From Planctomycetales bacterium (lineage in GTDB: Bacteria; 4484-113; JAFGCY01): 32,000 nt of DNA. The notes under the pieces are model-generated. The model did no database searches. It saw nothing but the letters and a program-made list of their open reading frames with translations, and had not been told where the DNA came from. Made by a program: the position numbers and the translations under genes. The stretch spans positions 3,720,001-3,752,000 of the forward strand of contig CP060262.1 in the NCBI GenBank assembly GCA_022646745.1, given 5' to 3'. Each line of letters starts with the position of its first letter. The stretch's first letter is position 1. Positions 3,981-32,000 of the stretch are shown here, one piece after another.

Positions 3981-4008
3981 TTGAAAACCAGGAGCGCGCC
4001 AATATAAA
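3981..4008 (+). promoter_or_regulatory. Sigma70-like promoter candidate for the 1667-aa gene
   Basis: TTGAAA (3981-3986), a 16-nt spacer, then TATAAA (4003-4008). AGGAG at 4016-4020 lies 5 nt upstream of ATG 4026. Confidence 0.35.
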
Positions 4009-4025
4009 CACTCCCAGGAGCTTAA

Positions 4026-9029: not shown

Positions 9030-9070
9030 TGTCTTCAGCCTGAGACTGATCAACTGAACTGATCAAAGCG

Positions 9071-9098
9071 CCCCGGGGCCCTGTGCCCCGGGGTTTTC
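9071..9098 (+). terminator. Rho-independent terminator after the 1667-aa gene
   Basis: ccccggggc-cctgt-gccccgggg forms a perfect 9-bp GC stem followed by TTTT. It lies 42 nt after the TAG stop at 9027-9029. Confidence 0.75.
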
Positions 9099-9148
9099 GC
9101 TTATCCGGGCCTGACTGGATGGGCGGCGCGCTAGAATAACGCACCAAA

Positions 9149-10990: not shown

Positions 10991-11093
10991 GCCGCACGCA
11001 ACCCGCTCCCCTTGTGCTGGTTCACCCCGGTATAATCAGGCTGGAATGAGACTTATCGGGTGGGGACATGACATGCGACCTGGTGGAGATTCG

Positions 11094-12902: not shown

Positions 12903-12939
12903 TCCATCCACATCGCTGGCCTCTTGCTGCCAACCGCCC

Positions 12940-13914: not shown

Positions 13915-14094
13915 TGTTGATGGGGACTGCTCGGGGCTGGATGGCATCCGAGGATTATACAGTCGGCCCTCGCGCGATTGCCAACAATGGCAAACCGGCA
14001 TGTGAACAGGTCACGTTCCAACTGCTTAGGTGCCACAGCTGGCCAGCTGGACTGTGCAGAATTCAGCGTCAAATAAAGTATTTCACCTAACACC

Positions 14095-14116
14095 GATATG
14101 ATATATATGATATATT
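14095..14116. promoter_or_regulatory. AT-only tandem element in the divergent promoter region between the oxidoreductase gene and the por operon
   Basis: gatatgatatatatgatatatt contains TGATATAT twice and sits in an otherwise GC-rich genome. It lies 59-80 nt upstream of ATG 14175. A GAGGAG RBS is at 14163-14168. Confidence 0.3.
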
Positions 14117-14174
14117 CTCTATAAACGTCAGAACTGCTGAATCACAGTTTACGCCAGCGAATGAGGAGCAGTCT

Positions 14175-14744
14175 ATGAGAGAGTTGCGCATACATGGCCG
14201 CGGTGGCCAGGGCGCGGTGATAGCGTCCAAGGTCCTTGCGGTGGCGATATTCAAGGAGGGCCGCTGGGTCCAGTCCTTCCCTGCCTTCGGCGTGGAGCGG
14301 CGGGGTGCCCCCGTCACTGCCTTCCTGAGGGTGGCAGACAGCCCGGTACTCCTGCGCTGTGAGGTCACCACCCCGGATGACCTGATCGTGCTAGATCCGA
14401 CCCTGCTTGATGCAATTGACATCACCGCCGGGCTCAAGCCTGGCGGCAGCATCCTGATCAACTCAGCCGCCGCACCGGAGGCATACGCACATATCGGCCC
14501 CTATCGGATAGCGACGGTCGATGCCAGTGCGATCGCACTGAAGTACGGGCTCGGTTCACGCACGCAGCCGATCGTCAATACGGCGATCGTTGGCGCCTTC
14601 GCCGTATTCAGTGGCCTGGTCTCGCTTGACAAGGTCTGCGCTGCCATCGAGGACGAGGTCCCGCGGCATGCGGAGGAGAACGTCGCCGCCGCCCGCGAAG
14701 CTGCCGAGCTGGTCAGGATCGCACAGGAGGCCGCGCATGTCTGA
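14175..14744 (+). CDS. porG: 2-oxoacid (pyruvate-type):ferredoxin oxidoreductase gamma subunit
   Basis: MRELRIHGRGGQGAVIASKVLAVAIFKEG...FPAFGVERRGAPV is the PorG/VorG signature. Gene order is gamma-delta-alpha-beta. Substrate (pyruvate, ketoisovalerate or 2-oxoglutarate) cannot be called from sequence by eye. Confidence 0.9.
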   Translation: MRELRIHGRGGQGAVIASKVLAVAIFKEGRWVQSFPAFGVERRGAPVTAFLRVADSPVLLRCEVTTPDDLIVLDPTLLDAIDITAGLKPGGSILINSAAAPEAYAHIGPYRIATVDASAIALKYGLGSRTQPIVNTAIVGAFAVFSGLVSLDKVCAAIEDEVPRHAEENVAAAREAAELVRIAQEAAHV

Positions 14745-20449: not shown

Positions 20450-20477
20450 TTGATCTATAGTGATTCGACTGTAAAAT
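20450..20477 (+). promoter_or_regulatory. Sigma70-like promoter candidate for the Cys-rich protein gene
   Basis: TTGATC (20450-20455), a 16-nt spacer, then TAAAAT (20472-20477). The predicted transcription start falls inside the palindrome at 20482-20497. Confidence 0.4.
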
Positions 20478-20481
20478 TACC

Positions 20482-20497
20482 GTGGATAACTATCCAC
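20482..20497. promoter_or_regulatory. Perfect 7-2-7 palindrome, operator candidate; each half resembles a DnaA box
   Basis: The sequence is gtggata-ac-tatccac. In context, cGTGGATAA and cTATCCACA each match the DnaA-box consensus TGTGGATAA/TTATCCACA at 8 of 9 positions. It lies immediately downstream of the -10 candidate. Confidence 0.4.
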
Positions 20498-20530
20498 AGA
20501 TCCAGAACCAAGTTTGTTGTGAGGGATATC

Positions 20531-21136
20531 GTGAGGAAAACACTTTCAATTTGGGTGCTGCTGTGCCTGTTGGCCCTCGGGTCGGCGGCCAGCGCAGCGG
20601 AGCAGATTGACCTGAACTGCGTCAAGATGCCGCGCTGCTGCACCATCTCCTGCGTCAAGATCGACCTCGAGTGCTGTGGCTGCTACGGCGCCAGCGGCGC
20701 CCTGTGGGCCGAATTCCTCGACCGCAGCGGCAACGTGCTCGGCACGGCCACCTTCAACGGCAACTGGTGCCGTTGCGAGACCACTGCCACACTCGACAAC
20801 CCGGTCAACTCCAGCGAGGTCTGCAGCGTGCGCCTCGTCAAGGAGGATGACAGCGTCATCGTGACCTGGGGTTCCCTGCGCGTGTTCTGCGAGGGCAATT
20901 GCGACTGCGGCAAGTGGAAGATGGCCTGGAAGGGCGACCTGTGGTGCTGGGAGCCCGTGCCCGAGCCGGTGATGGATGAGCCCGTCGCCGTCGTGCCGCC
21001 GGCCCCGGTGAAGAAGCCTGCCCCGCCGGTCGTGGCGAAGAAGCCCGAGCCGAAGCATGACTTCTCCTACTTCCCGCCGCAGAAGGAAGAGGAGCCCCAG
21101 GACGAGGAAGTGATCGTCGTCATCGGTAACGGCTAA
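20531..21136 (+). CDS. Small secreted cysteine-rich protein with a Pro/Lys-rich acidic tail (unknown function)
   Basis: GTG 20531 is preceded by GAGGGA, and the product begins VRKTLSIWVLLCLLALGSAASAAE, a signal peptide. The mature region has 14 Cys in CC, CxC and CxxC patterns (RCCTISC, ECCGCYG, WCRC, CEGNCDCGKW, WCW). The tail reads PEPVMDEPVAVVPPAPVKKPAPPVVAKKPEPK. The track TTG start at 20450 coincides with the promoter candidate. Confidence 0.65.
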   Translation: MRKTLSIWVLLCLLALGSAASAAEQIDLNCVKMPRCCTISCVKIDLECCGCYGASGALWAEFLDRSGNVLGTATFNGNWCRCETTATLDNPVNSSEVCSVRLVKEDDSVIVTWGSLRVFCEGNCDCGKWKMAWKGDLWCWEPVPEPVMDEPVAVVPPAPVKKPAPPVVAKKPEPKHDFSYFPPQKEEEPQDEEVIVVIGNG

Positions 21137-21164
21137 GCCTTACCAAGCTCAACCAGAAACAAGG

Positions 21165-21201
21165 AGGCCTGCCCTGGAAGTCCAGTGGCAGGCCTTTTTT
21201 T
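21165..21201 (+). terminator. Strong rho-independent terminator between convergent genes; marks the compositional boundary
   Basis: The stem aggcctgccctgg / ccag-t-ggcaggcct has 13 bp with one bulge and an aagt loop. It is followed by a run of 7 T. Confidence 0.85.
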
Positions 21202-21243
21202 GTACGTGGTTGTCTGGAAGATGTGATTGCTACATGCGGACAA

Positions 21244-21990
21244 TCAACCGGCAATGGTCAATAAGTGCGTGATTCTCTTCGTTCTGTACTTCATTAGTCG
21301 AGATAAATTGTCCTTCCAGTTGTCAACCAGAACTGGTTCATTCCAATTCAGTTCAGAGTACCAACTTGGAACCAGATCACTGCGGAATCCTGATCTGCCG
21401 TTTAATGATTCTTCGCCATATAGATCAATGTATCGCTGGAAAAATGCGGCTTTTATATTGTCCGAGTTATCAGTAGGCCTGACGGTTCCTTTAGGCAATA
21501 AAACCACATTGCACGCACATGTAAAGTCTCCATTGGGAACAAGGTCCACGTTAATACTGGAGAAATATCTTTGCTCAAGTACAAGCTCACTTTGCTTATG
21601 TGAGAAAACGTGAGCTAACTCAAACTCACATAATCCAGTTGACTTCCATTTTGGTCCACTGTAAGCGCTTCCATATTCCAGGTAGCACCAGATATGCCTT
21701 GGAAATGTGTTGTCGTCAATGATCGCTCTAAATTGTGGATTGTATGATTTTCGTTTTCCCTGGCCACTGACGTATCTTTTTACTCCCGGGAACACACATG
21801 TTGACCCTTGAAACAGATAGCTATCCAAATCAATCTTATCTTTGAACAACTCAGCGAAATATTCCCGCTCAGCCGCATTCTGATCTGCTATTCTTTGGGC
21901 AATCTTCGGGTGGATATGATATGCGAGTGATGCAAGGATTTTACATATTCCAAGCTCATGCTCAAATATTTTATTATGTGCAATTTGCAT
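21244..21990 (-). CDS. Hypothetical protein (248 aa) with a weak HNH_2/His-Me-finger-like motif
   Basis: This is a long ORF in very AT-rich DNA. The segment CEFELAHVFSHK...NVVLLPKGTVRPTD loosely resembles the 'C..leaAHI.p ... NgllL...H..FD' pattern of HNH_2 nucleases, but the second His is absent. No signal peptide is present. Confidence 0.55.
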   Translation of the reverse strand: MQIAHNKIFEHELGICKILASLAYHIHPKIAQRIADQNAAEREYFAELFKDKIDLDSYLFQGSTCVFPGVKRYVSGQGKRKSYNPQFRAIIDDNTFPRHIWCYLEYGSAYSGPKWKSTGLCEFELAHVFSHKQSELVLEQRYFSSINVDLVPNGDFTCACNVVLLPKGTVRPTDNSDNIKAAFFQRYIDLYGEESLNGRSGFRSDLVPSWYSELNWNEPVLVDNWKDNLSRLMKYRTKRITHLLTIAG

Positions 21991-22144
21991 TATTAACTGT
22001 AACTATCAGTAACATCCTGCACATACATTGGTGGAGGGAACGTGGGCTATGGGTAGAGCATGCGCAGCGCTCCCGAGATCCAGCCGTGATACCCTGAAAG
22101 CCGTAGTCAACATTCCAACAGAAACTTCAAGGTGGTGAACAAAG

Positions 22145-22303
22145 ATGGCAAGAGGAAAGAAGTTTGATCTGAGCGCTCTTCCGATCAGGGTCGTCTACTC
22201 GGATGAACCCATGCGGGAAGAAGCCCTGCGTGATGCAATGCTTGCCTTGATGACGAGCTGGGACAACTGCAAGTCTGACATGCGAATTGATGATGATAAC
22301 TAA
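22145..22303 (+). CDS. Possible small ORF (52 aa), unknown function
   Basis: Translation is MARGKKFDLSALPIRVVYSDEPMREEALRDAMLALMTSWDNCKSDMRIDDDN. AAGGTGGTGA lies ~8 nt upstream, and an in-frame TGA sits just upstream of the ATG. The ORF is below the track's length cut-off and I recognise no homology. Confidence 0.2.
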   Translation: MARGKKFDLSALPIRVVYSDEPMREEALRDAMLALMTSWDNCKSDMRIDDDN

Positions 22304-22465
22304 TTTTGGATTCGTTCAAGACATTACTGAAAATGGATTCTGACTGTGCATGTACTTGACCTGCTCGATCAAACGGGTACGAATATATTTTCGCGATGGG
22401 CATACATCAGAATGCCGTATGAAAATTCGGCTGTAACTTCCAGTATTTGCCTTTTTGCTTGGTAA

Positions 22466-24964
22466 CTACAGAACATTCACCTTAAATTCGTGCGCTGCGA
22501 ATTCCTCATAGGGATTGTCCAAGTACAGTGTGATCGTCACATTCGATCCAGAAGGAGCAGTGATATCTACAGTTGGAGACTGCAATGATGAGTCACTCGT
22601 CGTTCCGAGCGTGCCAAAGTCCCATAACCACGTGGTAGGAATGCCATGTTTCATGGCAAATGAGAACTTCACACCTACAGCGTCAGGTGCAACGAGCGTT
22701 GGACTGACGGCTAGTACTTCCATAGACATTACGTCAATGCTGTATTCCGCTGTATCTGTATTCGCAGGATTACTGGCCTGATAGGCTGTCACGCTCAGAT
22801 CAGACCATCTACCCACTTGAGTGGCTGTGGCAGTCCGCGATCCGCCGTTTTCCGAACCCGGAAAGAATGCTTCGGGAATGTTCCATTCGTAAATGACATC
22901 AGGCGGAGGACTGCCGATTAGCACTGCCTTTATTTCAAATTGCTCGTTCGTGCCGATTTCGATTCCCGCAATCGGAGCCAGCTGGATTAGATTCTCCGCC
23001 GGGTCAATCTGCAAGGAGAAATAGAGGATAGATTCAGAATCTTCGATCAGTGGATCGCTGACAGTTACGGAGCAGGTATAGGGAACCGCCCTGGACTTTC
23101 CAAGGACAATAGTAGGAACCCGCAAGGCGCTTGTAGTCGGCGTGGCCGCTGCAGTTTCTCCATCCTGGAAGTTCCAGAGGTAGCTAAGTCGAGCCGGATC
23201 TGCATACGGACCAGCTCCATCCAAAGTCAGCACTGACACTCCAAGTGTAGCTTCGCTTCCTTCAGTTCCCAAAGCTCCTGTTACTGCGCCAAGACTGAAG
23301 TCAGGTTCATCTGAAGGCTCTGCAGTGATTGTCAATGCGAACACCTTACTCTGCTTCAGACCGGACTGCAGCGGATCGGACACCTCCACGCTGCAGATGT
23401 AGGGCGATTGTGAAGCTGAACCAAGAATTACCGTCGGACCTGCTGCTGAACTCGTTGCCGGAGTTGCCGCTGATGGCCCTTCGCCGGTCTTGAAATTCCA
23501 GCTGTATGTCAGATTCTGCAGATCTGGATAAGACAAACCGGTTTCGGAGTCCAGTATCTCAATAGTCAGTGTGGAAGCGTTGTTCTCGAGACCGGAAGTA
23601 CCCAGAACCTCGCCTAGTTTGAATTCCGATTGGCCAGGCAGAATATCAACAAAAAATTCATAGGAGGCCGGATCAGCACCCTGCTCTCCCGCAAACGAAA
23701 CGCCCAAGCTGACCGGAAACTTACCCGGCTTCACGAGGGATACGAGCGGTTCGGAAGCCTGGCTGCTTTCTGGGGAGACGCCATTCCCGAGAGTCCAGCT
23801 GAACTCCAGCTGCTCCAGAGGAATTGGTATTCCGGCACCGTCACTCACCATAGGCACCAGGCGGAGTATTTGACCAACCCGGCCTTGCAGTTCAAAATCC
23901 TGCAAGGGCTGCAAATTTGATCCGTCAAGTCCGTATTCCAACCCATCTATCTGCAGATCAGGATTGACGCGGAAAGTGAAATCATGACGGACAGCGGTCT
24001 CTTCCGCATGATTCAAAGTGAACACCCGCACGCTTCCCGGAAGCAGTAGATCCGATGCTCCCCCCAGCTGAACCAGGGGCTTTGCAGCGCCGGGTTCATC
24101 AGACGTTCCAATATTGCCAAAATCCCATTCATATCCATAGATAGATGGGTCCGCCGTATCCTGAAGCTCTAGTGAAAACTGAACCTCGCTTCCGGCTTTA
24201 CCCGCTTGCGGAGAAACCGATAGCGGGACAGGAGATTCCGGAATGAGCTGCAAAAAATTGCTCTGGTAATTGGTGTTATCAGGAAGTGCGATAGGAGTGA
24301 CACTAACATTCACCATGTAGGACTGCTTTGAAGTATCCAGGAATGTAACTACAGGATTGGCAAGTTTACTCGTACGAAAAATTGGACCTTCAGGGCTCTC
24401 GCCTTCCCTAATAGTCCATTCGAACTTGTAATCTTTCTCTGAATGTCCCGATGGTTCCAGTTCCACGGAAAAAGCAACCGGTCTTCCATATGAATCGGAA
24501 TCCCAGCTAATCTCTCCGAGACTGAAACTAAAGGGCAAGACTTCATACGTGAATTCGTACGTCTGTTCGGGCGGACTATCCCCGCTGCCCTGACGGATCC
24601 GCAGAGTCCCACTGAATTCCTCCTTGGAGTCAACATGGGCAAGCACCATCTCCGGTTCCTTTGCCGTACTGTACCTTTCCAAAGTACCGCCCTTGTCGTC
24701 TTTGGCCCAAAAGTCCCACAGGAACTCGGCAGGTGTTTTTTCGTCGCGGAACACAGCCTGGTATCTGAAGCTGGCTGTCTCTCCCGAAAACGAGCTGGCC
24801 TCGTTGACAACAGCGAGCGTATCCGGCAGATGCTGCCTGTCATTCTGCAGGTCGCGCACTGACCCACAGGACGAAGCAGTCGCGGCTATAACGCTGCACA
24901 GTAGGATTCCGCAGAAACGTTGGATGTTCCTGCAATCAGTCAGGAAAATTGCGGCGCTATTCAT
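22466..24964 (-). CDS. Predicted lipoprotein (832 aa) built from ~8 tandem PKD/Ig-like modules
   Basis: The track start 25084 lies inside the secretin gene. ATG 24964 overlaps the secretin stop by 8 nt (ATGAATAG). The N-terminus MNSAAIFLTDCRNIQRFCGILLCSVIAATASSCGS is a signal peptide with a lipobox-like Cys. Eight aromatic-x-W-[DNT]-[FIL] motifs occur (FLWDF, FEWTI, YEWDF, FSWTL, YSWNF, YLWNF, YEWNI, WLWDF), roughly one per 90-110 aa. Confidence 0.8.
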   Translation of the reverse strand: MNSAAIFLTDCRNIQRFCGILLCSVIAATASSCGSVRDLQNDRQHLPDTLAVVNEASSFSGETASFRYQAVFRDEKTPAEFLWDFWAKDDKGGTLERYSTAKEPEMVLAHVDSKEEFSGTLRIRQGSGDSPPEQTYEFTYEVLPFSFSLGEISWDSDSYGRPVAFSVELEPSGHSEKDYKFEWTIREGESPEGPIFRTSKLANPVVTFLDTSKQSYMVNVSVTPIALPDNTNYQSNFLQLIPESPVPLSVSPQAGKAGSEVQFSLELQDTADPSIYGYEWDFGNIGTSDEPGAAKPLVQLGGASDLLLPGSVRVFTLNHAEETAVRHDFTFRVNPDLQIDGLEYGLDGSNLQPLQDFELQGRVGQILRLVPMVSDGAGIPIPLEQLEFSWTLGNGVSPESSQASEPLVSLVKPGKFPVSLGVSFAGEQGADPASYEFFVDILPGQSEFKLGEVLGTSGLENNASTLTIEILDSETGLSYPDLQNLTYSWNFKTGEGPSAATPATSSAAGPTVILGSASQSPYICSVEVSDPLQSGLKQSKVFALTITAEPSDEPDFSLGAVTGALGTEGSEATLGVSVLTLDGAGPYADPARLSYLWNFQDGETAAATPTTSALRVPTIVLGKSRAVPYTCSVTVSDPLIEDSESILYFSLQIDPAENLIQLAPIAGIEIGTNEQFEIKAVLIGSPPPDVIYEWNIPEAFFPGSENGGSRTATATQVGRWSDLSVTAYQASNPANTDTAEYSIDVMSMEVLAVSPTLVAPDAVGVKFSFAMKHGIPTTWLWDFGTLGTTSDSSLQSPTVDITAPSGSNVTITLYLDNPYEEFAAHEFKVNVL

Positions 24965-27263
24965 CGAGGATCTCCGGGATGACAATGATATAGATTTCGC
25001 TGCGTTCCTTGACAATGGAGCGCTTGCGGAACAGCTTCTTAACGATCGGCATGTCGCCCAGCAGCGGGACTTTGTCGACATCAATCTGATCCTTCTCGCT
25101 GATCATGCCGGCAAGCACAAAGGGCTCTCCGTCACGCACGTTGACAATCGTCTTCAGGCTGCGGCGCAGGTAGCGCGGAGGATTGAAGGAAGTCCCTCCG
25201 ATCGTTGTGTCATTCACAAGTGTGGTGACTTCAGGCAGGACTGCGATTGTCAGCAGGTCGTCTCCGCTTATGATTGGCTTGAAGCGAAGCGTAACCCCGA
25301 TGTTCAGGTAACTGACATTGTCTGTCACCTTTGTCGTATTGTTGTTCAAATACTCTTCGGACTGAATATAAGGCACCCTGTCTATTGCGCTGTAAACAGC
25401 TTCGAAGTTCTCGATAGTGCTCAGGTCCGGTTCGGCAAGTAATGTGATTTCACCATCACGAATCAGTGTGTCAAGGCTGGCACTGAAGTTGAGACCGTTA
25501 TCCCTGGTGTAACCCTCAATTGAGTCAGTCTCATAACGATTGTTCTTGCCAAGAAACTCAGTAAATGTTGTTGCAATGCTATCTGAGGTGATATCCATGC
25601 CGAGCTGTTTCCGAGCCCGTTCACTGAATTCACAAACCCGGACTTTGAGTTTGATTCCCCTCGGCCTGCGGTCCAGGCCACGAATGATCTGCATTACACG
25701 GCTCAGGGACTCTTCACTTGGAGCTGTGACCACTATGGAATTCTGTGATATCAGGATGTTCTTCTTGCTAGCATCGTCCGGATTGAAGAAATCGCCAAAC
25801 ATATTTACTTGGGACTCCGGAAGATTCTTTTCAGCAGGTGAAATTCGTTTCTCCAGTTCTGAATTGTCAAGATTGCTAGCTTTGGTCTTTGGCTTATCTG
25901 CTGTTTCCCCGTTTTCTGGAATAGTCCCTGATTCGGGAGTTCCGTTTGCTGGAGGTGCTGCGCCTTCTTGCTTAGTACCATTATCTCCTCCACTTCCAGT
26001 TGGATTTGCATTTCCAGGTGCTCCCGCAATATTATTGTTTCCTTTGCCCGGGTTCTCTTCTCCACTAATCAGCTTAAGTAATTTTTCAATACACATTCCG
26101 AAAGACGGATCAAGCTTGCTATTTATCTTTTCAAGTTGCTTGGAGATTTCTGCTAATTCCGTAGAGAAAGTCTCAATTTCTTTAGGCAAGTCATCATAAT
26201 TCTCAATCATTGTCACTCTAAGCCATTTCAATTCACTCTTTAGCTCAACTAGATTAATTTTATCTAAATCAGCGAGTAGCTTTTTCAAATTTGCAACATC
26301 AACATTCAGCTTCTTGGTTTCCGCATTGGCTTCCTTGAGGGACTTTATCAGTCCAGGAATTTCAGAAATCTCAACCGAGACAATTCCTTTACTCTTTCCA
26401 TTGACAATACTATAGGAATTGCCGGACTGATCCATCATCAGTACCCCTTCAAATTCCTCGGAATAGGCAGGGGCAATATTCGTCAGCCACTGCAGCGCCA
26501 TCTTGCTTGTGATGAAATGCAGATCCACCCTGCCAACCGCCGGTCTGTCCCTCTCGTATTCTTGTAACTTTCCTTCCTTGTCCAGCTTTGGCATATGCAG
26601 GTTTCTCTGCATGTTGCCAATATCGACCACGGCGCTCGTTTGCTGAGGCACACCAATCCGTGGCATGCGTAACATGTATAGAAAGCCACCACCAGGCTTC
26701 TGCTGGTTGCCCTCAACTTCCACAATGCTGACGCCCAGCCGGTTGAGGTCGGTTGAATCAACGAAGCTGATCAACAGGCCATTGCCAAAACCCTTACGGT
26801 AGCAGGGTAATACTTCCCGGGCCAGACTACAACATTGCCGACACCCACAGGTATCACCGGGAAAGCCCTGGCATCTGTGACAGGAATCAGAGCTGCCATA
26901 GACACCACAGCTGCAGGGAGCATCCGTGCAACGACAGGTCAATAAGCCTGCCTGGAAATCAAGATCCTTCGAATGTACAAAGAGGCAATTGGAAAACTTC
27001 CATTTCTCAATCTGCCAATGCACTCGCTGATCAGTGCTGATGAACAGCAGATCCGATCCGCATTGCGAACACGATTTAAGGCACTCGTCTCCGCGCATCG
27101 ACTCGGGATTGAAATCCAGGCATGCTTCGCATTCCGAACAACTGCCAGATGAATCACATGTACTGTAATAGCCCATGACAGTTGAAGCTTCGGCTGCAAT
27201 CAGGAATGCAGGCTGTACCAGTAACGCAATCAACATCAGGCATAGAAAACTAGCTTTCCTCAT
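24957..27263 (-). CDS. Secretin-family outer-membrane channel (GspD/PilQ-like C-terminal domain) with an atypical Cys-rich, coiled-coil and disordered N-terminal region
   Basis: The signal peptide is MRKASFLCLMLIALLVQPAFLIAAEAS. About 130 aa follow with ~30 Cys (CSECEAC, CLKSCSQC, CRCTDAPCSCG, CHRCQGFPGDTCGCRQCC). Next comes a heptad-like region (LKEANAETKKLNVDVANLKKLLADLDKINLVELKSELKWL) and a G/N/P/T-rich linker. A secretin N-type domain follows (IVVTAPSEESLSRVMQIIRGLDRRPRGIKLKVRVCEF). The canonical secretin core ends VNVRDGEPFVLAGMISEKDQIDVDKVPLLGDMPIVKKLFRKRS...EIYIIVIPEIL. Confidence 0.85.
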   Translation of the reverse strand: MRKASFLCLMLIALLVQPAFLIAAEASTVMGYYSTCDSSGSCSECEACLDFNPESMRGDECLKSCSQCGSDLLFISTDQRVHWQIEKWKFSNCLFVHSKDLDFQAGLLTCRCTDAPCSCGVYGSSDSCHRCQGFPGDTCGCRQCCSLAREVLPCYRKGFGNGLLISFVDSTDLNRLGVSIVEVEGNQQKPGGGFLYMLRMPRIGVPQQTSAVVDIGNMQRNLHMPKLDKEGKLQEYERDRPAVGRVDLHFITSKMALQWLTNIAPAYSEEFEGVLMMDQSGNSYSIVNGKSKGIVSVEISEIPGLIKSLKEANAETKKLNVDVANLKKLLADLDKINLVELKSELKWLRVTMIENYDDLPKEIETFSTELAEISKQLEKINSKLDPSFGMCIEKLLKLISGEENPGKGNNNIAGAPGNANPTGSGGDNGTKQEGAAPPANGTPESGTIPENGETADKPKTKASNLDNSELEKRISPAEKNLPESQVNMFGDFFNPDDASKKNILISQNSIVVTAPSEESLSRVMQIIRGLDRRPRGIKLKVRVCEFSERARKQLGMDITSDSIATTFTEFLGKNNRYETDSIEGYTRDNGLNFSASLDTLIRDGEITLLAEPDLSTIENFEAVYSAIDRVPYIQSEEYLNNNTTKVTDNVSYLNIGVTLRFKPIISGDDLLTIAVLPEVTTLVNDTTIGGTSFNPPRYLRRSLKTIVNVRDGEPFVLAGMISEKDQIDVDKVPLLGDMPIVKKLFRKRSIVKERSEIYIIVIPEILDE

Positions 27264-27301
27264 CCAGCACCTCTCTGAAATGACAAGCCAATCTTATGGC
27301 T

Positions 27302-27336
27302 GGCAATTCAAGATGATGTTAGGCAATTCTCAAGAT
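27302..27336. promoter_or_regulatory. Direct repeat pair in the secretin upstream region; candidate response-regulator site
   Basis: ggcaattcaagat (27302-27314) and ggcaattctcaagat (27322-27336) start 20 nt apart, about two helical turns. They lie 39-73 nt upstream of the secretin ATG at 27263. Confidence 0.35.
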
Positions 27337-27344
27337 TAAATCAA
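27316..27344 (-). promoter_or_regulatory. Sigma70-like promoter candidate for the secretin / PKD-lipoprotein pair
   Basis: On the minus strand: TTGATT (27344-27339), a 17-nt spacer, then TAACAT (27321-27316). A GAGAGG RBS lies 7 nt before the ATG. The direct repeats overlap the spacer and the predicted transcription start. Confidence 0.3.
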
Positions 27345-27448
27345 GTCTTTTTCGTGATGTTGACAACAAGCCAATAAACCAGGGGAATACTTATGCAATT
27401 TTGATAATGTTTCACGGAGAAAAACAAGTGTGGATTCAAGCGCTTAAC

Positions 27449-28495
27449 TTAAGCACTCGGCAGTTCTACAATGAATGTGCTGCCAACAGCGACAGCGCTT
27501 TCCAGCCTGACACTGCCACCAAGCTGTTTGACAACGCTGTGCACCTTGCTAAGTCCGAGGCCCGCCCCCTGGTAATCTCCCGCGCGAGCGGCGCTTGCCC
27601 GGAAGAAGCGTTCGAAGATGCGCGGCTGCTCATCTGCCGGGATTCCGATTCCGCTGTCGTGTACAGACAACAAGACTGAACTTTCTGCAAGGTCCAGACT
27701 GACATGTACTTCTCCACCATGCGGTGAGTACTTGATCGCATTGTCAATGAGGTTGTAAATCACTTCATGCAGCGCAGGCTTATTTGCAAAGACCCTGGGC
27801 AGAACATCCACAACTGTAAGTTGAAGCTTTACATCTGACTTTGCTGCGCTTTCACGCCGGCTGTCAATGACATCCTCAGTAATCTGTCTGATATCAGTGG
27901 CCTCCAGCGGATCCGGGAATCCTGCTCTATCCAACCGGGAGAGGAAAAACAGATCGTTGATGGTGCGATTCAAACTGCCCGTCAGTCGCATGATGTTCCC
28001 GAGGTATTCATCTGTCTTACCCTGGCCGTCAGGCATAGCAATCTGAAGGGTTTCGGCATAACCCCTGATACTGGCAAGTGGCGTCTTCATTGAATGTGCC
28101 AGGCTGTCAATCAGTTGCCAATGCTCCTCGTCTTGCCTGCGTCGCTCAGCTCTGTCAAGGTGAATCAACAAAACACCTCCCTCAAGACCCAACACCAGAC
28201 TATCTAGGAATTGTGTGGCCACCGATCCATCAATCTCTATACGTTCACCAGCTGCAGGCATATTTAGTAGAACATGCTCAATGGAAGTCGACCGCAAGGA
28301 TGGCAGCATCTCAAGGAATTGGAGCGGAAACTTCGGCTCCGACAGCAGTGAATGCAGCTGGCGGAATTCCATGTTGGCATTCAATGCGAGACACTCTGAG
28401 CTCAGCAGGCATGCAGGATGCTTCAGGGCGGAACAGAGATCCAGCATGGCTTCGCCATGTAGTTGAACGCTCTTACTGTGCGAGTAAGGTAGCAC
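27449..28495 (-). CDS. Soluble (no TM segment) sensor histidine kinase, HisKA + HATPase_c
   Basis: The H-box is LAHSMKTPLASIRGYAETL and the N-box is NLIDNAIKYSPHGG. G1 is DSGIGIP..FERFFR and G2 is GAGLGLSKV. The ~130-aa N-terminal region has no hydrophobic helices. The start is either GTG 28495 or ATG 28447. Confidence 0.85.
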   Translation of the reverse strand: MLPYSHSKSVQLHGEAMLDLCSALKHPACLLSSECLALNANMEFRQLHSLLSEPKFPLQFLEMLPSLRSTSIEHVLLNMPAAGERIEIDGSVATQFLDSLVLGLEGGVLLIHLDRAERRRQDEEHWQLIDSLAHSMKTPLASIRGYAETLQIAMPDGQGKTDEYLGNIMRLTGSLNRTINDLFFLSRLDRAGFPDPLEATDIRQITEDVIDSRRESAAKSDVKLQLTVVDVLPRVFANKPALHEVIYNLIDNAIKYSPHGGEVHVSLDLAESSVLLSVHDSGIGIPADEQPRIFERFFRASAARAGDYQGAGLGLSKVHSVVKQLGGSVRLESAVAVGSTFIVELPSA

Positions 28496-28509
28496 TAATG
28501 AACAGCATA

Positions 28510-29211
28510 TCAGGCATCACCGCCCGATCCATCGAAGCGATATCCCACACCCCACTTGGTGCGGATGAACCTTCGGGCAGTACCCAGTGCCTGGCGAATG
28601 GAGCTGATGTGCACATCTATGTTGTGCGTATCTACATAAACATCATCACCAATCGCCAGATTGATCAACTGGTCACGAGTAAAAACCCGACCATCATGCT
28701 CTGCTAGGGTTTGCAGCAAGCGGAACTGTGTGGCGGTCAGGTTTATGGGAATCCCGTGAACCGTTACTTCATGCCCCAGCGTGTCAATACTGAGCTCCTC
28801 GAAGCAAAGCTGGCTACCCTTTTCCATTCCACGACTCATCCTTCGTTGAAGGGCCCGTACACGGGCAACCATTTCCCTTACACCAAATGGCTTGGTCATG
28901 TAGTCATCTGCACCAAGTTCAAGGCCACTGACTACGTCCGCCTCCTCTCCGCGGGAGGAAATTATCATAACTGGCACATTGGCCGTCTTACGACTGGCCC
29001 GCATGGCACGGCATACATCCAGGCCCTGCATGCCTGGCAACATGAGATCCAGCAGCAGCATATCCGGTGGAGACGCAAGAACTCGTTCGAGACCCTGAGT
29101 TCCATCACGGTCATGCGTGACACTGTACCCGGAATTGCTGAGATTCTCCGTGAGAATCTCCACCAGGTCGGCATCGTCTTCGATTATGTGGATTGATGCG
29201 GGAGGTGTCAT
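28510..29211 (-). CDS. OmpR/PhoB-family response regulator
   Basis: ATG 29211 is preceded by AGGA; the track start 29409 over-extends into the S8 gene. Receiver residues are present (IIEDD, LLLDLMLPG, IISSRG, YMTKPF). The winged-helix C-terminus includes LTATQFRLL...VDVHISSIRQAL...IRTKWGVGYRF. Confidence 0.9.
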   Translation of the reverse strand: MTPPASIHIIEDDADLVEILTENLSNSGYSVTHDRDGTQGLERVLASPPDMLLLDLMLPGMQGLDVCRAMRASRKTANVPVMIISSRGEEADVVSGLELGADDYMTKPFGVREMVARVRALQRRMSRGMEKGSQLCFEELSIDTLGHEVTVHGIPINLTATQFRLLQTLAEHDGRVFTRDQLINLAIGDDVYVDTHNIDVHISSIRQALGTARRFIRTKWGVGYRFDGSGGDA

Positions 29212-29236
29212 GAGGTTTTCCTGAGCTTGTAAGCAA

Positions 29237-30721
29237 TCATCTTCTACATAGGACCTTGATTGGCTTGTTAAAAAGGGAATACTTGCTTTCCGTACCAAGA
29301 TTCCTTTCCCTGGCGATACTATCGACAACAGACAGACCATTGCTTTTGATACTCCAGAAGTTGTTTGCAAGGCAACCAGCAAGGATTGGTGCAGCAAAAC
29401 TGGTGCCACTTTCTATCTTCAACTCACCATTCTTATCAATTGTGGGAACTCTTTCTCCTGGAGCATATACCTTCACATTATCAGACCTGTTTGAGCTGAC
29501 TGAAACATCAAGGAAAATTCCATTTTCTGACAGCTTGCCACAAAGGGAACCTACCGCAATCACTGAATCTTCCACACCCGGATACTGAATGGACGTTTCC
29601 GAACCGTCATTGCCTGCTGCTGCAACAATTGGCACCCCGATTGTGTCAAAGTACTTCAGAGTTCGTGCTAATCCAATATTCTTTCCCCCTTCATTCTCCC
29701 ATGTCGAAGTAATCACTACCATATTTACGGCATGGGCAGGTTCATCCTCCGTGCGATCTAGCAGGATAGATTCTATCGTAACAGGCTTCCGACCCAATAC
29801 AGAACAGAATGCCCTTAAAATGTCATCTGTGCTTGAATGTGCTCCTTCAGATATCTTGCACGGAAGAATCTTAGTCTTGTGGGATAACCCGATTCTCCTT
29901 TTGACGTGGTTGCAGCTGTATTCCCTTTGGCTGGCAATTAGTGAGGCAACCTGAGTTCCGTGACCGTGGTTGTCAATCGGCGGATCCCAGAACTTCGGTG
30001 GCACATGCCAGTTCAGTGTATGTGACCCAAGATACTGATTAACAGTTTGGAAATTATCTTGATAGATATCGGCTTCGCGCAGGTTTACCCCAGTCCCAAT
30101 TACGCCTATGATCACACAATCTTCTACTTCTGAATCATGCCGCATGCTGTCTTCACACGTACCCAGCATTTCGTACAACCAGCAATCTGAGGTAGAAAGG
30201 TCGCTGTCACCTGCCAGTGATTTTTCAGAAAAGGTTCTTACGGGCTGAGGATCCTGCCACGAGACTAACACTTGATTACGTAACTCCTTATCATTTGACA
30301 TGGACATCTGCCGCAACCATTCCGCAAAGTCACGCTCAGATGCAGGCTCACTATCTGCCGTACATAGAACCGTCACATGCACCAGGGCCGATTCCGCGAA
30401 GTCAAAATACTCAAAGTCAGCTGTACCAGTCTCGCCGATGTAGATCATATATGCTTCCAGCATCTGCACAAGCAGAACGCATATCCACTCCTGACCGATC
30501 GGTTCTCCGTTGGAATACTTTTCCACGAGCTTTACTGTCAAACTGTAAACTTTTTGGAAGATACGAACAAATTTGACGAGACGCTCATGAATTGAGGTTG
30601 TAGCATCATACTTTATGGAGTCTAGAATATTTCTGACGACAGCAATCTGTTCTTTGCTGACTTTGCCTTTATTCCGGACGAAATTGATTTCATATGTTCT
30701 TGTAACCCAATACATACTCAT
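29237..30721 (-). CDS. Cytoplasmic S8 subtilase-like protein with a ~200-aa N-terminal extra domain; catalytic Asp position occupied by Gly
   Basis: The His motif DNHGHGTQVAS, the oxyanion Asn in VAAAGNDG and the Ser motif ESGTSFAAPILAG are all present. The normally conserved (V/I)DTG motif reads VIGTGV, with the Gly codon GGG at 30095-30097. No signal peptide is present. The start is ATG 30721 or 30715 (AAGGA upstream). The track GTG start at 30808 overlaps the upstream gene. Confidence 0.8.
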   Translation of the reverse strand: MSMYWVTRTYEINFVRNKGKVSKEQIAVVRNILDSIKYDATTSIHERLVKFVRIFQKVYSLTVKLVEKYSNGEPIGQEWICVLLVQMLEAYMIYIGETGTADFEYFDFAESALVHVTVLCTADSEPASERDFAEWLRQMSMSNDKELRNQVLVSWQDPQPVRTFSEKSLAGDSDLSTSDCWLYEMLGTCEDSMRHDSEVEDCVIIGVIGTGVNLREADIYQDNFQTVNQYLGSHTLNWHVPPKFWDPPIDNHGHGTQVASLIASQREYSCNHVKRRIGLSHKTKILPCKISEGAHSSTDDILRAFCSVLGRKPVTIESILLDRTEDEPAHAVNMVVITSTWENEGGKNIGLARTLKYFDTIGVPIVAAAGNDGSETSIQYPGVEDSVIAVGSLCGKLSENGIFLDVSVSSNRSDNVKVYAPGERVPTIDKNGELKIESGTSFAAPILAGCLANNFWSIKSNGLSVVDSIARERNLGTESKYSLFNKPIKVLCRR

Positions 30722-30735
30722 TCCTTTGGAATAAA

Positions 30736-31479
30736 CTACGGGCAGGTCCACTCGATACGACACTGATTCGGGCTGCTTAAATCGTAATACGGTTTGTCGT
30801 CTTCCCACTCCGGATCACTATGAGCGTGACCAACAGCTTTGTACGAATTAATGACTTCGTCTTCCAGATATTTTTCTTCCCCACAAGTGAAATCGAGCGA
30901 ACTGCTAATGGAATTCTTCCACAGCCTATCTTTTTCGTCCATAACATAAAACGTCACTTCATAAGGGAATGTCCTTCTGATACAGGGTGTTGAGGGGGTG
31001 CAGATTGCGCATGTGTATGCCTGCCCCGTGCTGAAAGGATCGTGCTTACTAGTTGTTTTGAACCAGGGATATGATCCATCAGTGGGCTTCGGAAGCAGTT
31101 TACCCACAGGGTTTTCTTTTGCATTGACGGGTATAAGCCTGATCTCTGTCAGCACATTATCAATCTGCCCGGAAGAATTCACTGTAAAACGGATTGAGTC
31201 CTTTAGTTCATTAAGTCTTGCCATGAATGCAAACCGGACAAGAACACTGCTGTCATCTTTCACCATAGGTATCACTTTTGCCTGTGGAGTGGATTTTGCA
31301 ATCAGTGTTTCCCTCTCATTGTTCGCATAGTGATGTATTATCACGTTGTAGTGCAAATCTCCGGAAAGTGAGGAATCAAGACCAGCATAATCATTGTCAT
31401 ACAGGTATCGGCAATGACTCATACCATTGTCCGAAGCGAACACTTGAAGTTTCTGATTTGGAATCGATACGATTGTCAT
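30736..31479 (-). CDS. Hypothetical protein (247 aa), no recognisable motif; encoded directly upstream of the S8-like gene
   Basis: The ORF has AAGGAG 6 nt upstream of ATG 31479. It starts 16 nt after the TPR gene stop and ends 14 nt before the S8 start. No signal peptide, TM segment or Walker motif is present. The sequence looks beta-rich, and the C-terminal part has 6 Cys. Confidence 0.7.
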   Translation of the reverse strand: MTIVSIPNQKLQVFASDNGMSHCRYLYDNDYAGLDSSLSGDLHYNVIIHHYANNERETLIAKSTPQAKVIPMVKDDSSVLVRFAFMARLNELKDSIRFTVNSSGQIDNVLTEIRLIPVNAKENPVGKLLPKPTDGSYPWFKTTSKHDPFSTGQAYTCAICTPSTPCIRRTFPYEVTFYVMDEKDRLWKNSISSSLDFTCGEEKYLEDEVINSYKAVGHAHSDPEWEDDKPYYDLSSPNQCRIEWTCP

Positions 31480-31495
31480 GCAATTCTCCTTAGCT

Positions 31496-32000
31496 CTAAT
31501 ATATCGGAGACTCTTTATCCACGGAATTCCGCTGAGCCTGATTGACTTTTAAATCAGTGAGTTGTCTGTGAAAGTCTAGATCTACCGGTCTTCCCAGGGC
31601 CTCATACAGGGCATCAGCTCTGGCCTGGGAATCCTGCCTGCCATGTTCGTCTCCGGCCCGTTGATGAGCCATTGCCAGCATCACGATTGACCGGCCCTCG
31701 AAGATGTGCTCACCCAGTTCATTGAACAGCTCCGCAGATTGACGCAGTTCGTTGATTGCCAGTCCATGCCGCCTATCAGCTGACAATGCCCAGCCTCGTA
31801 CCTGCAGCAGGTAGGCAAACTCCGTAGGATGCTCCTCGCGATCACAACCTGCTCCCAGCAGCTGCAGTTCCTGCTGCGCTGCTTCGGCCTGACCTTCTTC
31901 CAGCAGCATTACTGCCAGATGTATTTTGACCTGATACATCATTCCCGGCAGGAGTCCCTGCTCCACCAGCCCGAGACATTCCGCATAGCGCGCACGGGCC
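31496..32000 (-). CDS. TPR-like helical-repeat protein, C-terminal part only (5' end beyond window)
   Basis: The frame stays open upstream of the track's GTG 31966 all the way to position 32000 (...ARARYAECLGLVEQGLLPGMMYQ...). The sequence has alanine-rich helix-pair repeats (AAQQELQLLGA..., FAYLLQVRGWAL..., AINELRQSAELFNELGE..., SIVMLAMAHQRAGD...). Confidence 0.6.
   Translation of the reverse strand, partial: ARARYAECLGLVEQGLLPGMMYQVKIHLAVMLLEEGQAEAAQQELQLLGAGCDREEHPTEFAYLLQVRGWALSADRRHGLAINELRQSAELFNELGEHIFEGRSIVMLAMAHQRAGDEHGRQDSQARADALYEALGRPVDLDFHRQLTDLKVNQAQRNSVDKESPIY

What the first reader, a model, noticed from the sequence alone, without database searches (positions are those of the whole stretch)
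24957..27263. Chimeric secretin in which a Cys-rich domain, coiled coil and disordered linker replace the usual N0-N3 periplasmic domains
The C-terminal ~270 aa form a textbook secretin core, preceded by a single secretin-N-type domain. The first ~480 aa are unlike GspD, PilQ, InvG or pIV. They comprise ~130 aa with ~30 cysteines in CxxC, CxC and CC patterns, an unassigned region, a heptad-like segment and a G/N/P/T-rich linker. Such a Cys density in a periplasmic domain suggests a disulfide knot or a metal-binding module. I know of no characterised secretin with this architecture.
Basis: partly seen in the sequence, partly recalled or inferred. Interest (0 to 1): 0.75.

Follow-up and report, generated by a model that had tools for sequence, protein, structure and literature searches.

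The report
Secretin pore with orphan cysteine-rich head
This is a real outer-membrane secretin channel gene from an uncultured Planctomycetales bacterium whose periplasmic half is a lineage-specific cysteine-rich module, an unassigned domain, a helical stalk and a floppy linker where no standard docking domain is detectable by sequence, and public annotations have cut the odd part off.

Summary
The ORF 24957-27263 (-), 768 aa, is real and is not a chimera. The same in-frame architecture occurs in three independent assemblies at 100, 91 and 69% identity.

- **Secretin part:** the C-terminus is a bona fide secretin core (Pfam E=1e-34; the top 40 Foldseek PDB hits are all secretins). A degenerate N3-like unit precedes it.
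- **N-terminal part:** residues 1-459 match nothing in Pfam, NCBIfam or PDB, nor an N0 profile. An exhaustive phmmer of residues 26-300 against 1.84 billion representatives found only its own cluster.
- **Cysteine count:** There are 19 Cys in residues 36-154, not about 30. All 19 are invariant, and the segment is under purifying selection (dN/dS 0.16).
- **Annotation:** the public NCBI, ENA and JGI gene models start at three different internal codons. They lose the signal peptide and the Cys-rich module.
- **Context:** the gene is translationally coupled to a PKD-repeat lipoprotein. It sits in a conserved low-GC seven-gene cassette with a two-component system, with no type II or type IV machinery nearby.
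- **Limits:** AlphaFold failed on the N-terminus (pLDDT about 30), so a cryptic N0-like fold at about 246-312 cannot be excluded.

Verdict: a new variant of a known kind, of moderate interest. The function of the head domain is inferred, not shown.

The parts
27316..27344 (-). Conserved promoter-like block (TTGATT-17 nt-TAACAT) in the histidine kinase/secretin intergenic region
   Evidence: It is nearly invariant in all three loci although synonymous sites are saturated between W and L002. It scores below the threshold of the consensus scan, so its promoter role is an inference.
27268..27275 (-). Shine-Dalgarno-like GAGAGGTG, 4 nt upstream of ATG 27261-27263
   Evidence: It is invariant in the window, L001 and L002. 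It supports M1 as the true start rather than the internal starts of the public gene models.
27186..27263 (-). Sec-type signal peptide, residues 1-26 (MRK, then a hydrophobic core, then AAEA|S)
   Evidence: Read directly from the sequence. Mean Kyte-Doolittle hydropathy of residues 4-24 is 2.34. The A-A-E-x-S cleavage motif is invariant in the orthologs. There is no twin-arginine motif and no lipobox. SignalP was not available.
26784..27185 (-). Cys-rich module, residues 27-160. It has 19 invariant Cys in the pattern C-x5-C-x2-C-x2-C-x12-C-x3-C-x2-C-x24-C-x16-C-x-C-x4-C-x-C-x8-C-x2-C-x7-C-x-C-x2-CC-x8-C
   Evidence: Sources are. dN/dS is 0.16 (W vs L001); pN is 0.23 against pS 0.87 (W vs L002). 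There is no Pfam hit even at E<=10, no PDB hit, and no relative among 1.84e9 representatives. The AF2 model is unusable.
26364..26783 (-). Unassigned, well-conserved 'mid' domain, residues 161-300. It is predicted beta-rich with one helix, and a cryptic N0-like unit is possible at ~246-312
   Evidence: It is 76% identical between the most distant orthologs, with dN/dS 0.13. There is no significant Pfam, PDB or N0-profile match. It is not a duplication of the secretin core.
26064..26363 (-). Helical, coiled-coil-like stalk, residues 301-400
   Evidence: AF2 predicts four helices (305-334, 338-354, 361-382, 386-399) at pLDDT 50-62. Heptad periodicity is significant in windows 302-336 and 344-392. 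There are weak hits to coiled-coil families. Identity is only 30% between distant orthologs, but the helical character is kept.
25887..26063 (-). Low-complexity G/N/P/T-rich linker, residues 401-459
   Evidence: Based on composition, indels among the orthologs, dN/dS of 0.94, and the absence of predicted secondary structure.
25629..25886 (-). N3-like (Secretin_N-type) unit, residues 460-545. Its second half is recognisable and its first half is divergent
   Evidence: PF03958 matches residues 507-535 at E=0.23, below threshold. The TIGR02517 GspD alignment spans 442-767. The InvG, MxiD and DR_0774 PDB alignments start at residue 507. AF2 gives strand-strand-helix-strand over 503-547 at pLDDT 70-82. 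The unit is 87% identical between distant orthologs.
24960..25628 (-). Secretin beta-barrel core, residues 546-768. There is no C-terminal S domain: the protein ends 2 residues after the Pfam match
   Evidence: PF00263 E=9.7e-35. PDB phmmer gives 22 secretin chains. The top 40 Foldseek hits are all secretins. dN/dS is 0.013-0.02.
22466..24964 (-). Translationally coupled downstream gene: an 832-aa PKD-repeat protein with a lipoprotein-type signal (conserved Cys followed by G-[ST]-x-RDL)
   Evidence: Its ATG at 24964 overlaps the secretin stop codon in ATGAATAG. PKD PF00801 matches at E=1.6e-25 over 6 stretches. The same gene follows the secretin with the same overlap in L001 and L002, and the +1 Cys is conserved.
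27449..29211 (-). Upstream two-component system: a soluble HisKA/HATPase_c histidine kinase (27449-28495) and an OmpR-type response regulator (28510-29211)
   Evidence: Pfam hits. The genes keep this position in L001 and L002. The response regulator start was chosen at ATG 29211.
29237..32000 (-). Rest of the conserved low-GC cassette: an S8 subtilase (29237-30808), a 247-aa unknown protein (30736-31479), and the C-terminal end of a TPR protein (31496 to beyond the window edge)
   Evidence: The cassette lies in different flanking contexts in L002 than in the window and L001. Its GC is lower than the flanks in all three loci. No signal peptides were seen by inspection, so a link to the secretin is uncertain.

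Best explanation
**Shown**
- Positions 24957-27263 (-) are one genuine gene for a Sec-exported, 768-aa outer-membrane secretin. It belongs to a narrow, uncultured Planctomycetales lineage.
- Residues ~546-768 form the canonical secretin barrel, and residues ~460-545 form a degenerate N3-like ring unit.
- Upstream of these, where N0/N1/N2 would normally sit, the protein carries, from pore to tip, a ~60-aa disordered linker, a ~100-aa helical stalk, and a ~275-aa lineage-specific globular head. The head is a conserved 'mid' domain plus a module with 19 invariant cysteines.

**Inferred mechanism**
- The barrel multimerises in the outer membrane like other secretins.
- The linker and helical stalk let the head reach across the periplasm.
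- The head, stabilised by disulfides or by bound metal, does the job N0 does elsewhere: it docks or anchors the pore to a partner. That partner could be an inner-membrane or periplasmic component, or the protein-rich envelope layer of Planctomycetales.
- The translationally coupled PKD-repeat lipoprotein is the most likely partner, either as cargo for surface display or as a pilotin-like accessory.
- The secretin-PKD pair has its own conserved promoter-like element. It is probably controlled by the adjacent OmpR-type two-component system.
For: **Real coding, full length**
- The long ORF, signal peptide and Cys module are in frame in three assemblies.
- dN/dS for the Cys module is 0.16 and for the mid domain 0.13. 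Synonymous sites are saturated between the distant pair while pN is only 0.14-0.23.
- A Shine-Dalgarno-like motif before M1 is conserved.
- Full-length products were called in Logan/ENA assemblies: P0024 is identical to the window ORF, and P0026 to the L001 long ORF.
- The truncated public models lack any signal peptide, which a secretin requires.

**Secretin identity:**

**Orphan N-terminus:**

**Stalk and linker:**

**Partner and context**
- An 8-nt stop/start overlap joins the secretin to a PKD lipoprotein gene.
- The seven-gene cassette is conserved in different flanks and has a lower GC than its flanks.
- No GspE/F, pilin or PilM-P genes occur in the 32-kb window or in the 22-kb loci.

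**Literature**
- Secretins are described as sharing N0 and N3, with N0 contacting the inner-membrane partners (PMC8563730).
- Cys-rich proteins are found in Planctomycetales cell-wall preparations (PMC8567305).
Against: - No structure could be obtained for residues 1-300 (pLDDT ~30). The head may therefore contain a cryptic N0-like fold.
- The docking or anchoring role is an analogy, not a test.
- Disulfide versus metal binding is undecided. The 19 Cys are an odd number, and C544 in the N3/core junction is also invariant.
- The PKD protein could simply be an unrelated co-transcribed gene.
- The three genomes are close relatives, so conserved gene order is weak evidence of function.
- The S8, TPR and 247-aa proteins appear cytoplasmic and may be an unrelated module.
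- A type II or type IV machine encoded elsewhere in the 4.1-Mb genome could not be checked.
Confidence: 0.5

Rival explanations
1. The architecture is more ordinary than it looks. Residues ~246-312 are a highly divergent N0/STN-like beta-alpha-beta-beta-alpha domain whose second helix runs into the coiled coil. The protein would then be N0 + stalk + linker + N3 + core, with a Cys-rich extension in front. It would dock to a conventional type II or type IV inner-membrane platform encoded elsewhere.
For: - By eye, 'VDLHF-ITSKMALQWLTNIA...VLMMD...IVSVEISEIPGLIKSL' follows the hydrophobic pattern of N0/STN domains.
- The best, though non-significant, hhalign and hmmsearch alignments fall in that same register.
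- The low-confidence AF2 models place strand-helix-strand there.
- The nearest relative, P0007, has a weak N0/STN match.
- P0011 sits in a pseudopilin/PilM/PilN cluster.
- My N0 profile scored a true T3SS N0 control at only 1.9%, so a negative result is not decisive.
Against: - No Pfam STN or N0 hit at E<=10.
- hhalign probability is 0.2-0.8%, against 27-97% for four of the five controls.
- hmmsearch --max gives i-E 0.83, against 1e-4 to 5e-3 for distant secretins in the same small database.
- No type II or type IV genes occur within 32 kb.
Confidence: 0.3
2. The secretin-PKD pair is a self-contained outer-membrane export or surface-display device that works without a type IV-filament-type inner-membrane machine. 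The Cys-rich head acts as a redox- or metal-dependent anchor or switch tied to the Planctomycetales envelope.
For: - No detectable N0.
- No machinery genes in the window or in two orthologous loci.
- Translational coupling to a lipoprotein.
- The cassette moves as a block with its own regulators.
- Cys-rich envelope proteins are known in this order (PMC8567305).
Against: - Every characterised secretin works with an inner-membrane ATPase-driven machine (established knowledge; PMC8563730).
- The energy source for such export would be unexplained.
- The rest of the genome was not inspected.
- There is no YTV-domain similarity.
Confidence: 0.12
3. The public gene models are right. Translation starts internally at residue ~152-168, and the upstream Cys-rich stretch is untranslated, a separate small gene, or an assembly artefact.
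For: Three pipelines (NCBI, ENA, JGI) called truncated products of 605, 623 and 612 aa.
Against: - The three models use three different non-ATG starts at non-homologous positions.
- None of them has a signal peptide.
- The upstream 160 codons are in frame with no stops, under purifying selection, and all 19 Cys are invariant.
- A conserved SD plus ATG lies at M1.
- Other callers gave the 768- and 774-aa forms.
- The ORF is colinear in independent assemblies from different samples.
Confidence: 0.03

Closest known systems
Type II secretion secretin GspD/PulD (TIGR02517; PDB 5wq8, 5w68, 6hcg, 9k8v)
   Same: It shares the C-terminal double-walled barrel domain and an N3-like unit. These are the best NCBIfam and Foldseek matches.
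   Different: The score is 117.9 against a cutoff of 351. There are no detectable N0, N1 or N2 domains, no S domain, and no gsp genes nearby. The N-terminal 459 residues are unrelated.
Short metagenomic secretins (P0007, 456 aa, weak N0 + N3 + core; P0011, 353 aa, N3 + core, in a pseudopilin/PilM/PilN cluster)
   Same: These are the closest non-orthologous sequences, at 25-32% identity over the last ~260-300 residues. They have a single Secretin_N unit, and an overlapping downstream gene follows the secretin.
   Different: They lack the Cys-rich module, the mid domain, the helical stalk and the linker. Their Secretin_N and N0 matches are detectable by Pfam, whereas ours are not.
Filamentous-phage secretin pIV (PDB 7ofh)
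   Same: It is a compact secretin with no S domain and no cap. A flexible linker separates the distal N-terminal domain from N3 (PMC8563730). The core matches at E=1.5e-6.
   Different: The distal domain of pIV is a canonical N0 that binds pI/pXI. Here the distal part is an orphan 275-aa head behind a much longer stalk and linker. There is no phage context and no phage hit.
Type IVa pilus secretin PilQ with AMIN domains
   Same: The concept is the same: accessory N-terminal domains, joined by linkers, anchor the pore to the cell envelope. This is a functional analogy, not shown here.
   Different: No AMIN domain is present, the PilQ model scores 77 against a cutoff of 284, and no pil genes are nearby.
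Cys-rich YTV-domain cell-wall proteins of Planctomycetales
   Same: They are cysteine-rich, exported, and restricted to the same bacterial order (PMC8567305).
   Different: There is no YTV (Pfam) match even at E<=10. The resemblance is one of composition and location only.

Membership tests
Secretin superfamily (PF00263) | C-terminal secretin beta-barrel domain above the Pfam gathering score | tested here: met
   120.1 bits against a cutoff of 27.5, at residues 600-766. There are 22 secretin chains in the PDB search. The top 40 Foldseek hits are all secretins.
Secretin superfamily (PF00263) | N3 (Secretin_N, PF03958) domain directly before the barrel | tested here: inconclusive
   12.1 bits against a cutoff of 28.2, covering only model positions 41-68. 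The GspD and InvG alignments do extend to residues 442 and 507. AF2 gives a confident strand-strand-helix-strand over 503-547.
Secretin superfamily (PF00263) | N0 domain at the mature N-terminus, detectable by sequence or profile | tested here: not met
   No PF21305 or PF07660 hit at E<=10. hhalign against a 5-sequence and a 79-sequence N0 profile gives probability 0.2-0.8%. hmmsearch --max gives i-E 0.83. Controls P0005, P0007, P0022 and P0018 scored 97, 91, 52 and 27%, but a T3SS N0 (P0006) scored only 1.9%.
Secretin superfamily (PF00263) | N0-like fold, whatever the sequence | not testable with these tools
   AF2 on residues 26-300 gave mean pLDDT 31.8, and the full-length model stayed below 50 for most of residues 1-310 apart from a short stretch around 224-237. 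Orthologs from the loci were not accepted as alignment rows.
Secretin superfamily (PF00263) | Sec signal peptide for export | tested here: met
   By inspection: MRK, a 21-residue hydrophobic core (mean KD 2.34) and AAEA|S, conserved in the orthologs. No SignalP run was possible.
T2SS secretin GspD (TIGR02517) | Equivalog score cutoff, and gsp genes in the neighbourhood | tested here: not met
   117.9 bits against a cutoff of 351.35. There are no GspC-M-type genes in the window, L001 or L002.
T4P secretin PilQ (TIGR02515) / MshL (TIGR02519) | Model cutoff, AMIN domains, and pilMNOP genes upstream | tested here: not met
   77 against 284.35 and 85.9 against 250.2. There are no AMIN hits and no pil genes nearby.
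T3SS secretin SctC (TIGR02516) | Model cutoff and an injectisome gene context | tested here: not met
   75 against 238.45. There are no T3SS genes nearby.
Phage pIV-type secretin | Phage or prophage context, and an N0 that binds pI | tested here: not met
   The N-terminus has no tblastn hit in 50,697 phage records. No phage-like genes were seen among the neighbours scanned against Pfam. N0 is not detected.
YTV Cys-rich cell-wall proteins (Planctomycetales) | YTV domain match | tested here: not met
   No Pfam family of any kind matches residues 26-160 at E<=10.

The most novel reading that the evidence does not exclude
This would be a secretin that has dispensed with N0-mediated docking to a type IV-filament-type inner-membrane machine. 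Together with its translationally coupled PKD lipoprotein, it would form a self-contained, two-component-regulated outer-membrane export or display device. Its orphan 19-Cys head would tether or gate the pore through disulfide or metal chemistry with the protein-rich Planctomycetales envelope.
Probability: 0.12. Interest if true: 0.75.

Novelty: new variant of a known kind. Interest (0 to 1): 0.45.

Why it matters
**Architecture.** Secretins are described as always sharing N0 and N3, with N0 as the handle that couples the outer-membrane pore to its inner-membrane motor (PMC8563730). A secretin whose distal handle is an unrelated cysteine-rich head on a helical stalk would show that the pore module can be recombined with other periplasmic anchors. 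It would also give an entry point into the poorly understood envelope and secretion biology of Planctomycetales.

**Annotation.** Three public annotation pipelines removed the unusual domain and the signal peptide. Domain-architecture surveys based on those gene models would never have seen this variant.

**Caveat.** The family is tiny (three near-orthologs from metagenomes), is uncultured, and has no usable structure model. The functional significance is therefore still conjecture.

Tried and rejected
1. **AF2 of residues 26-300** with the available alignment gave mean pLDDT 31.8 and is unusable. The full-length AF2 model is confident only for residues 503-768.
2. **Remote homologs of the N-terminus.** None was found in any search outside the gene's own cluster.
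   - The exhaustive phmmer search found only its own cluster.
   - Back-translated pattern scans of GTDB genomes and JGI metagenomes found nothing.
   - tblastn against phages and plasmids found nothing.
   - PDB phmmer at E<=10 gave only noise.
   - Pfam at E<=10 gave nothing.
3. **N0 hypothesis.** hhalign and hmmsearch against small and large N0 profiles were not significant.
4. **Internal duplication** of the secretin-domain start (LLISFVDSTDLNRLGVSI against LKVRVCEFSERARKQLGMDI) was rejected: BLASTP E>4.
5. **Relationship to the neighbouring Cys-rich ORF** at 20450-21136 was rejected: E=0.65.
6. **Relationship to the coiled-coil/TPR protein** upstream of the related short secretin P0011 was rejected: E=0.38.
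7. **Defence-system reading of the cassette.** Only a generic subtilase hit appeared in PADLOC.
8. **Heme, Fe-S and Tat export.** There is no CxxCH motif and no twin-arginine signal, by reading the sequence.
9. **Literature searches** for Planctomycetes secretins or Cys-rich secretins found nothing relevant.
10. **Consensus promoter and terminator scan** was uninformative.
Full report
**Observation.** The window holds a 768-codon ORF at exactly 24957..27263 on the minus strand.
- The C-terminus is a clear secretin. Pfam Secretin PF00263 covers residues 600-766 (E=9.7e-35, 120 bits against a cutoff of 27.5).
- Twenty-two PDB secretin chains (GspD, PilQ, InvG, MxiD, pIV, RcpA) match residues ~590-766.
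- A Foldseek search with the AF2 model returned secretins as all of its top 40 hits.
- All subtype-specific NCBIfam models score far below their cutoffs: GspD 118 against 351, MshL 86 against 250, PilQ 77 against 284, SctC 75 against 238.
- The 'secretin-N' unit before the core is only half recognisable. PF03958 matches residues 507-535 at E=0.23. The GspD and InvG alignments do extend to residues 442 and 507, and AF2 gives a confident strand-strand-helix-strand over 503-547.
- The cysteine count was overstated. There are 22 Cys in all, 19 of them in residues 36-154, and none form CxxCH (spacing).
- The helical segment is supported: four predicted helices within 305-399, and heptad periodicity in two stretches.
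- The G/N/P-rich linker is supported.

**Is the long ORF real?** At first sight the databases disagree.
- The identical NCBI protein (UNM08165.1, 'MAG: type II and III secretion system protein [Planctomycetales bacterium]', on a 4.1-Mb contig) is 605 aa. Its two relatives are 623 aa (ENA, 90% identity) and 612 aa (JGI, 69% identity).
- All three begin just after the Cys-rich region, at three different non-ATG codons, and none has a signal peptide.
- I fetched the DNA of the two relatives. In both, the reading frame continues upstream without stops to an ATG, followed by a signal peptide and the same Cys-rich module.
- In the three-way alignment all 19 cysteines are invariant. Non-Cys positions of the same segment are 61% identical between the most distant pair, so P~9e-5.
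- Nei-Gojobori estimates give dN/dS 0.16 for the Cys module and 0.13 for the next domain (window vs L001). Between the window and L002, synonymous sites are saturated (pS 0.87) while pN is 0.23.
- A GAGAGGTG Shine-Dalgarno-like motif 4 nt before the ATG is invariant.
- Other gene callers did produce the full-length products. P0024 is identical to the window ORF and P0026 to the L001 long ORF.
- The long form is therefore the gene, and the public short models are start-site errors.
- Because the same colinear ORF occurs in independent assemblies from different samples, the assembly-chimera refutation does not apply.

**What is the N-terminal part?** Nothing known, by every sequence test available.
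- Pfam and NCBIfam give only sub-threshold coiled-coil-type noise over 299-398.
- Residues 26-160 and 161-300, scanned separately at E<=10, give nothing meaningful.
- phmmer of residues 26-480 against all PDB sequences at E<=10 gives noise.
- An exhaustive phmmer of residues 26-300 against 1.84 billion cluster representatives found a single protein, its own cluster.
- Pattern-plus-tblastn scans of 185,579 reference genomes and of JGI metagenome contigs found no relative.
- Phage and plasmid collections gave no hit.

**Testing the N0 refutation criterion.**
- hhalign of the ortholog profile of residues 161-340 against a 5-sequence N0 profile gave probability 0.8%.
- Against a 79-sequence N0 profile it gave 0.3%.
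- An unfiltered hmmsearch gave i-E 0.83. Distant secretins in the same 20-sequence database scored 1e-4 to 5e-3.
- Leave-out controls scored 97, 91, 52 and 27%. A genuine T3SS N0 scored only 1.9%, so the test can miss very divergent N0 domains.
- By eye, residues ~246-312 (VDLHF-ITSKMALQWLTNIA...VLMMD...IVSVEISEIPGLIKSL) follow an N0/STN-like hydrophobic pattern. The best non-significant alignments fall in that register.
- I therefore keep a cryptic N0-like unit as a rival, at about 0.3.
- AF2 could not settle this. pLDDT was 31.8 for residues 26-300 and stayed below 50 for most of 1-310 in the full-length model.

**Evolutionary profile along the protein.** Identity is between the most distant pair (window vs L002). 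dN/dS is window vs L001, except the core row, which also covers the distant pairs.

| Segment | Identity | dN/dS |
|---|---|---|
| Secretin core | 91% | 0.013-0.02 |
| N3-like unit | 87% | 0.12 |
| Mid domain | 76% | 0.13 |
| Cys module | 67% | 0.16 |
| Helical stalk | 30% | 0.17 |
| Linker | 40%, with indels | 0.94 |

This is the pattern expected for folded, functional head and pore modules joined by a spacer whose length and physical character matter more than its sequence.

**Relatives and context.**
- Even the core is isolated. A search with residues 471-768 found only 17 proteins at E<=1e-5. The best were 25-32% identical, and all were short (300-470 aa) with Secretin_N plus Secretin only.
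- The best, P0007, has a weak N0/STN match.
- P0011 lies in a cluster with a pseudopilin and PilM/PilN-like genes, and a second secretin gene directly follows it.
- The protein therefore looks like a minimal secretin that acquired a large N-terminal extension.
- In the window, the secretin stop overlaps the start of an 832-aa PKD-repeat protein (ATGAATAG). That protein's signal peptide ends in a conserved lipobox-like Cys.
- Upstream lie a soluble histidine kinase, an OmpR-type regulator, an S8 subtilase, a 247-aa unknown protein and a TPR protein.
- The seven genes keep their order in L001 and L002. The flanks differ in L002.
- The block is 0.45-0.53 GC against ~0.62 in its flanks, in all three loci.
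- No type II, III or IV machinery gene is present in the 32-kb window or in the two 22-kb loci.
- A block TTGATT-17-TAACAT in the kinase-secretin spacer is conserved despite saturated synonymous divergence. It may be the promoter of the secretin-PKD pair.

**Mechanism.**
- Shown: a Sec-exported secretin with a canonical barrel, a degenerate N3, and an orphan N-terminal region made of linker, helical stalk and a conserved head with 19 invariant Cys.
- Inferred: the barrel multimerises in the outer membrane. The linker and stalk span the periplasm. The head, held together by disulfides or bound metal, takes over the docking or anchoring role that N0 plays in other secretins (PMC8563730).
- The coupled PKD lipoprotein is the best candidate partner, as cargo or as an accessory.
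- Cys-rich proteins are a known feature of Planctomycetales wall preparations (PMC8567305). The module has no YTV-domain similarity, so this is only a contextual hint.
- Fe-S or heme binding is unlikely, because the signal is Sec-type and there is no CxxCH.

**Comparison and novelty.**
- It is a member of the secretin superfamily.
- It is not a member of the GspD, PilQ, MshL, SctC or pIV subfamilies by their own criteria.
- Its N-terminal architecture has no counterpart in Pfam, NCBIfam or PDB, or in the literature I could search.
- I class it as a new variant of a known kind.
- Interest is moderate (0.45). The departure from the 'N0 + N3 in all secretins' rule is real at the sequence level, and public annotation has hidden it. 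The family is three near-orthologs from uncultured bacteria, the fold is unknown, and the function is conjecture.

Noticed in passing
window 26775-27263 (-); P0001, P0002, P0003: The NCBI (UNM08165.1, 605 aa), ENA (623 aa) and JGI (612 aa) gene models of this secretin start at three different internal TTG/GTG-type codons. They omit the signal peptide and the Cys-rich module. JGI even calls a spurious 78-aa gene on the opposite strand over that region (L002 9554-9790).
   Followed up: yes
window ~21000-32000; L001 ~3600-14400; L002 ~3600-14000: The TPR / unknown / S8 / response regulator / histidine kinase / secretin / PKD cassette is a low-GC block (0.45-0.53) in a ~0.62 GC genome in all three loci. 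It lies in different flanking contexts in L002. This suggests a unit that was acquired or moves as a block.
   Followed up: partly
window 20450-21136 (+): A 228-aa ORF with a signal-peptide-like N-terminus, a second Cys-rich stretch (CC, CxC, CCGCYG) and a Pro/Lys-rich tail. It has no Pfam or PADLOC hit and no significant similarity to the secretin's Cys module (E=0.65).
   Followed up: partly
window 27316-27344 (-): A conserved TTGATT-17 nt-TAACAT block lies in the kinase-secretin spacer. It overlaps an 18-nt motif TTGAGAAT(T/C)GC(C/T)TAACAT shared by the window and the distant ortholog L002; L001 reads TAGAGAATTGCATAACAT at the same place. It could be a promoter and/or a response-regulator site.
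   Followed up: partly
L004 6618-9869: In a related metagenomic locus the short secretin P0011 is preceded, with a 1-nt gap, by a signal-peptide + TPR/charged-helical protein whose C-terminal part reads like an N0 motif (DLHLNDVDLRQVINLITSRTKVTILVD). A second secretin gene follows it directly. This may be a split or tandem secretin arrangement inside a pseudopilin/PilM/PilN cluster.
   Followed up: partly
window 4026-9029 (+) and 10887-12902 (+): Very large ORFs of 1667 aa and 671 aa in the high-GC part of the window have no Pfam match at E<=0.001.
   Followed up: no
window 21244-21990 (-): A 248-aa ORF with no family match sits between the PKD gene and the high-GC flank. The corresponding place in L001 instead holds a 52-aa ORF and a 1347-aa S8-like protein, so this edge of the cassette is variable.
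   Followed up: no
window 29237-31479 (-): The S8 subtilase and the 247-aa unknown protein upstream of the two-component system show no signal peptide by inspection. The subtilase has weak PADLOC 'subtilase/IetS' hits. They may form a cytoplasmic module unrelated to secretion.
   Followed up: partly
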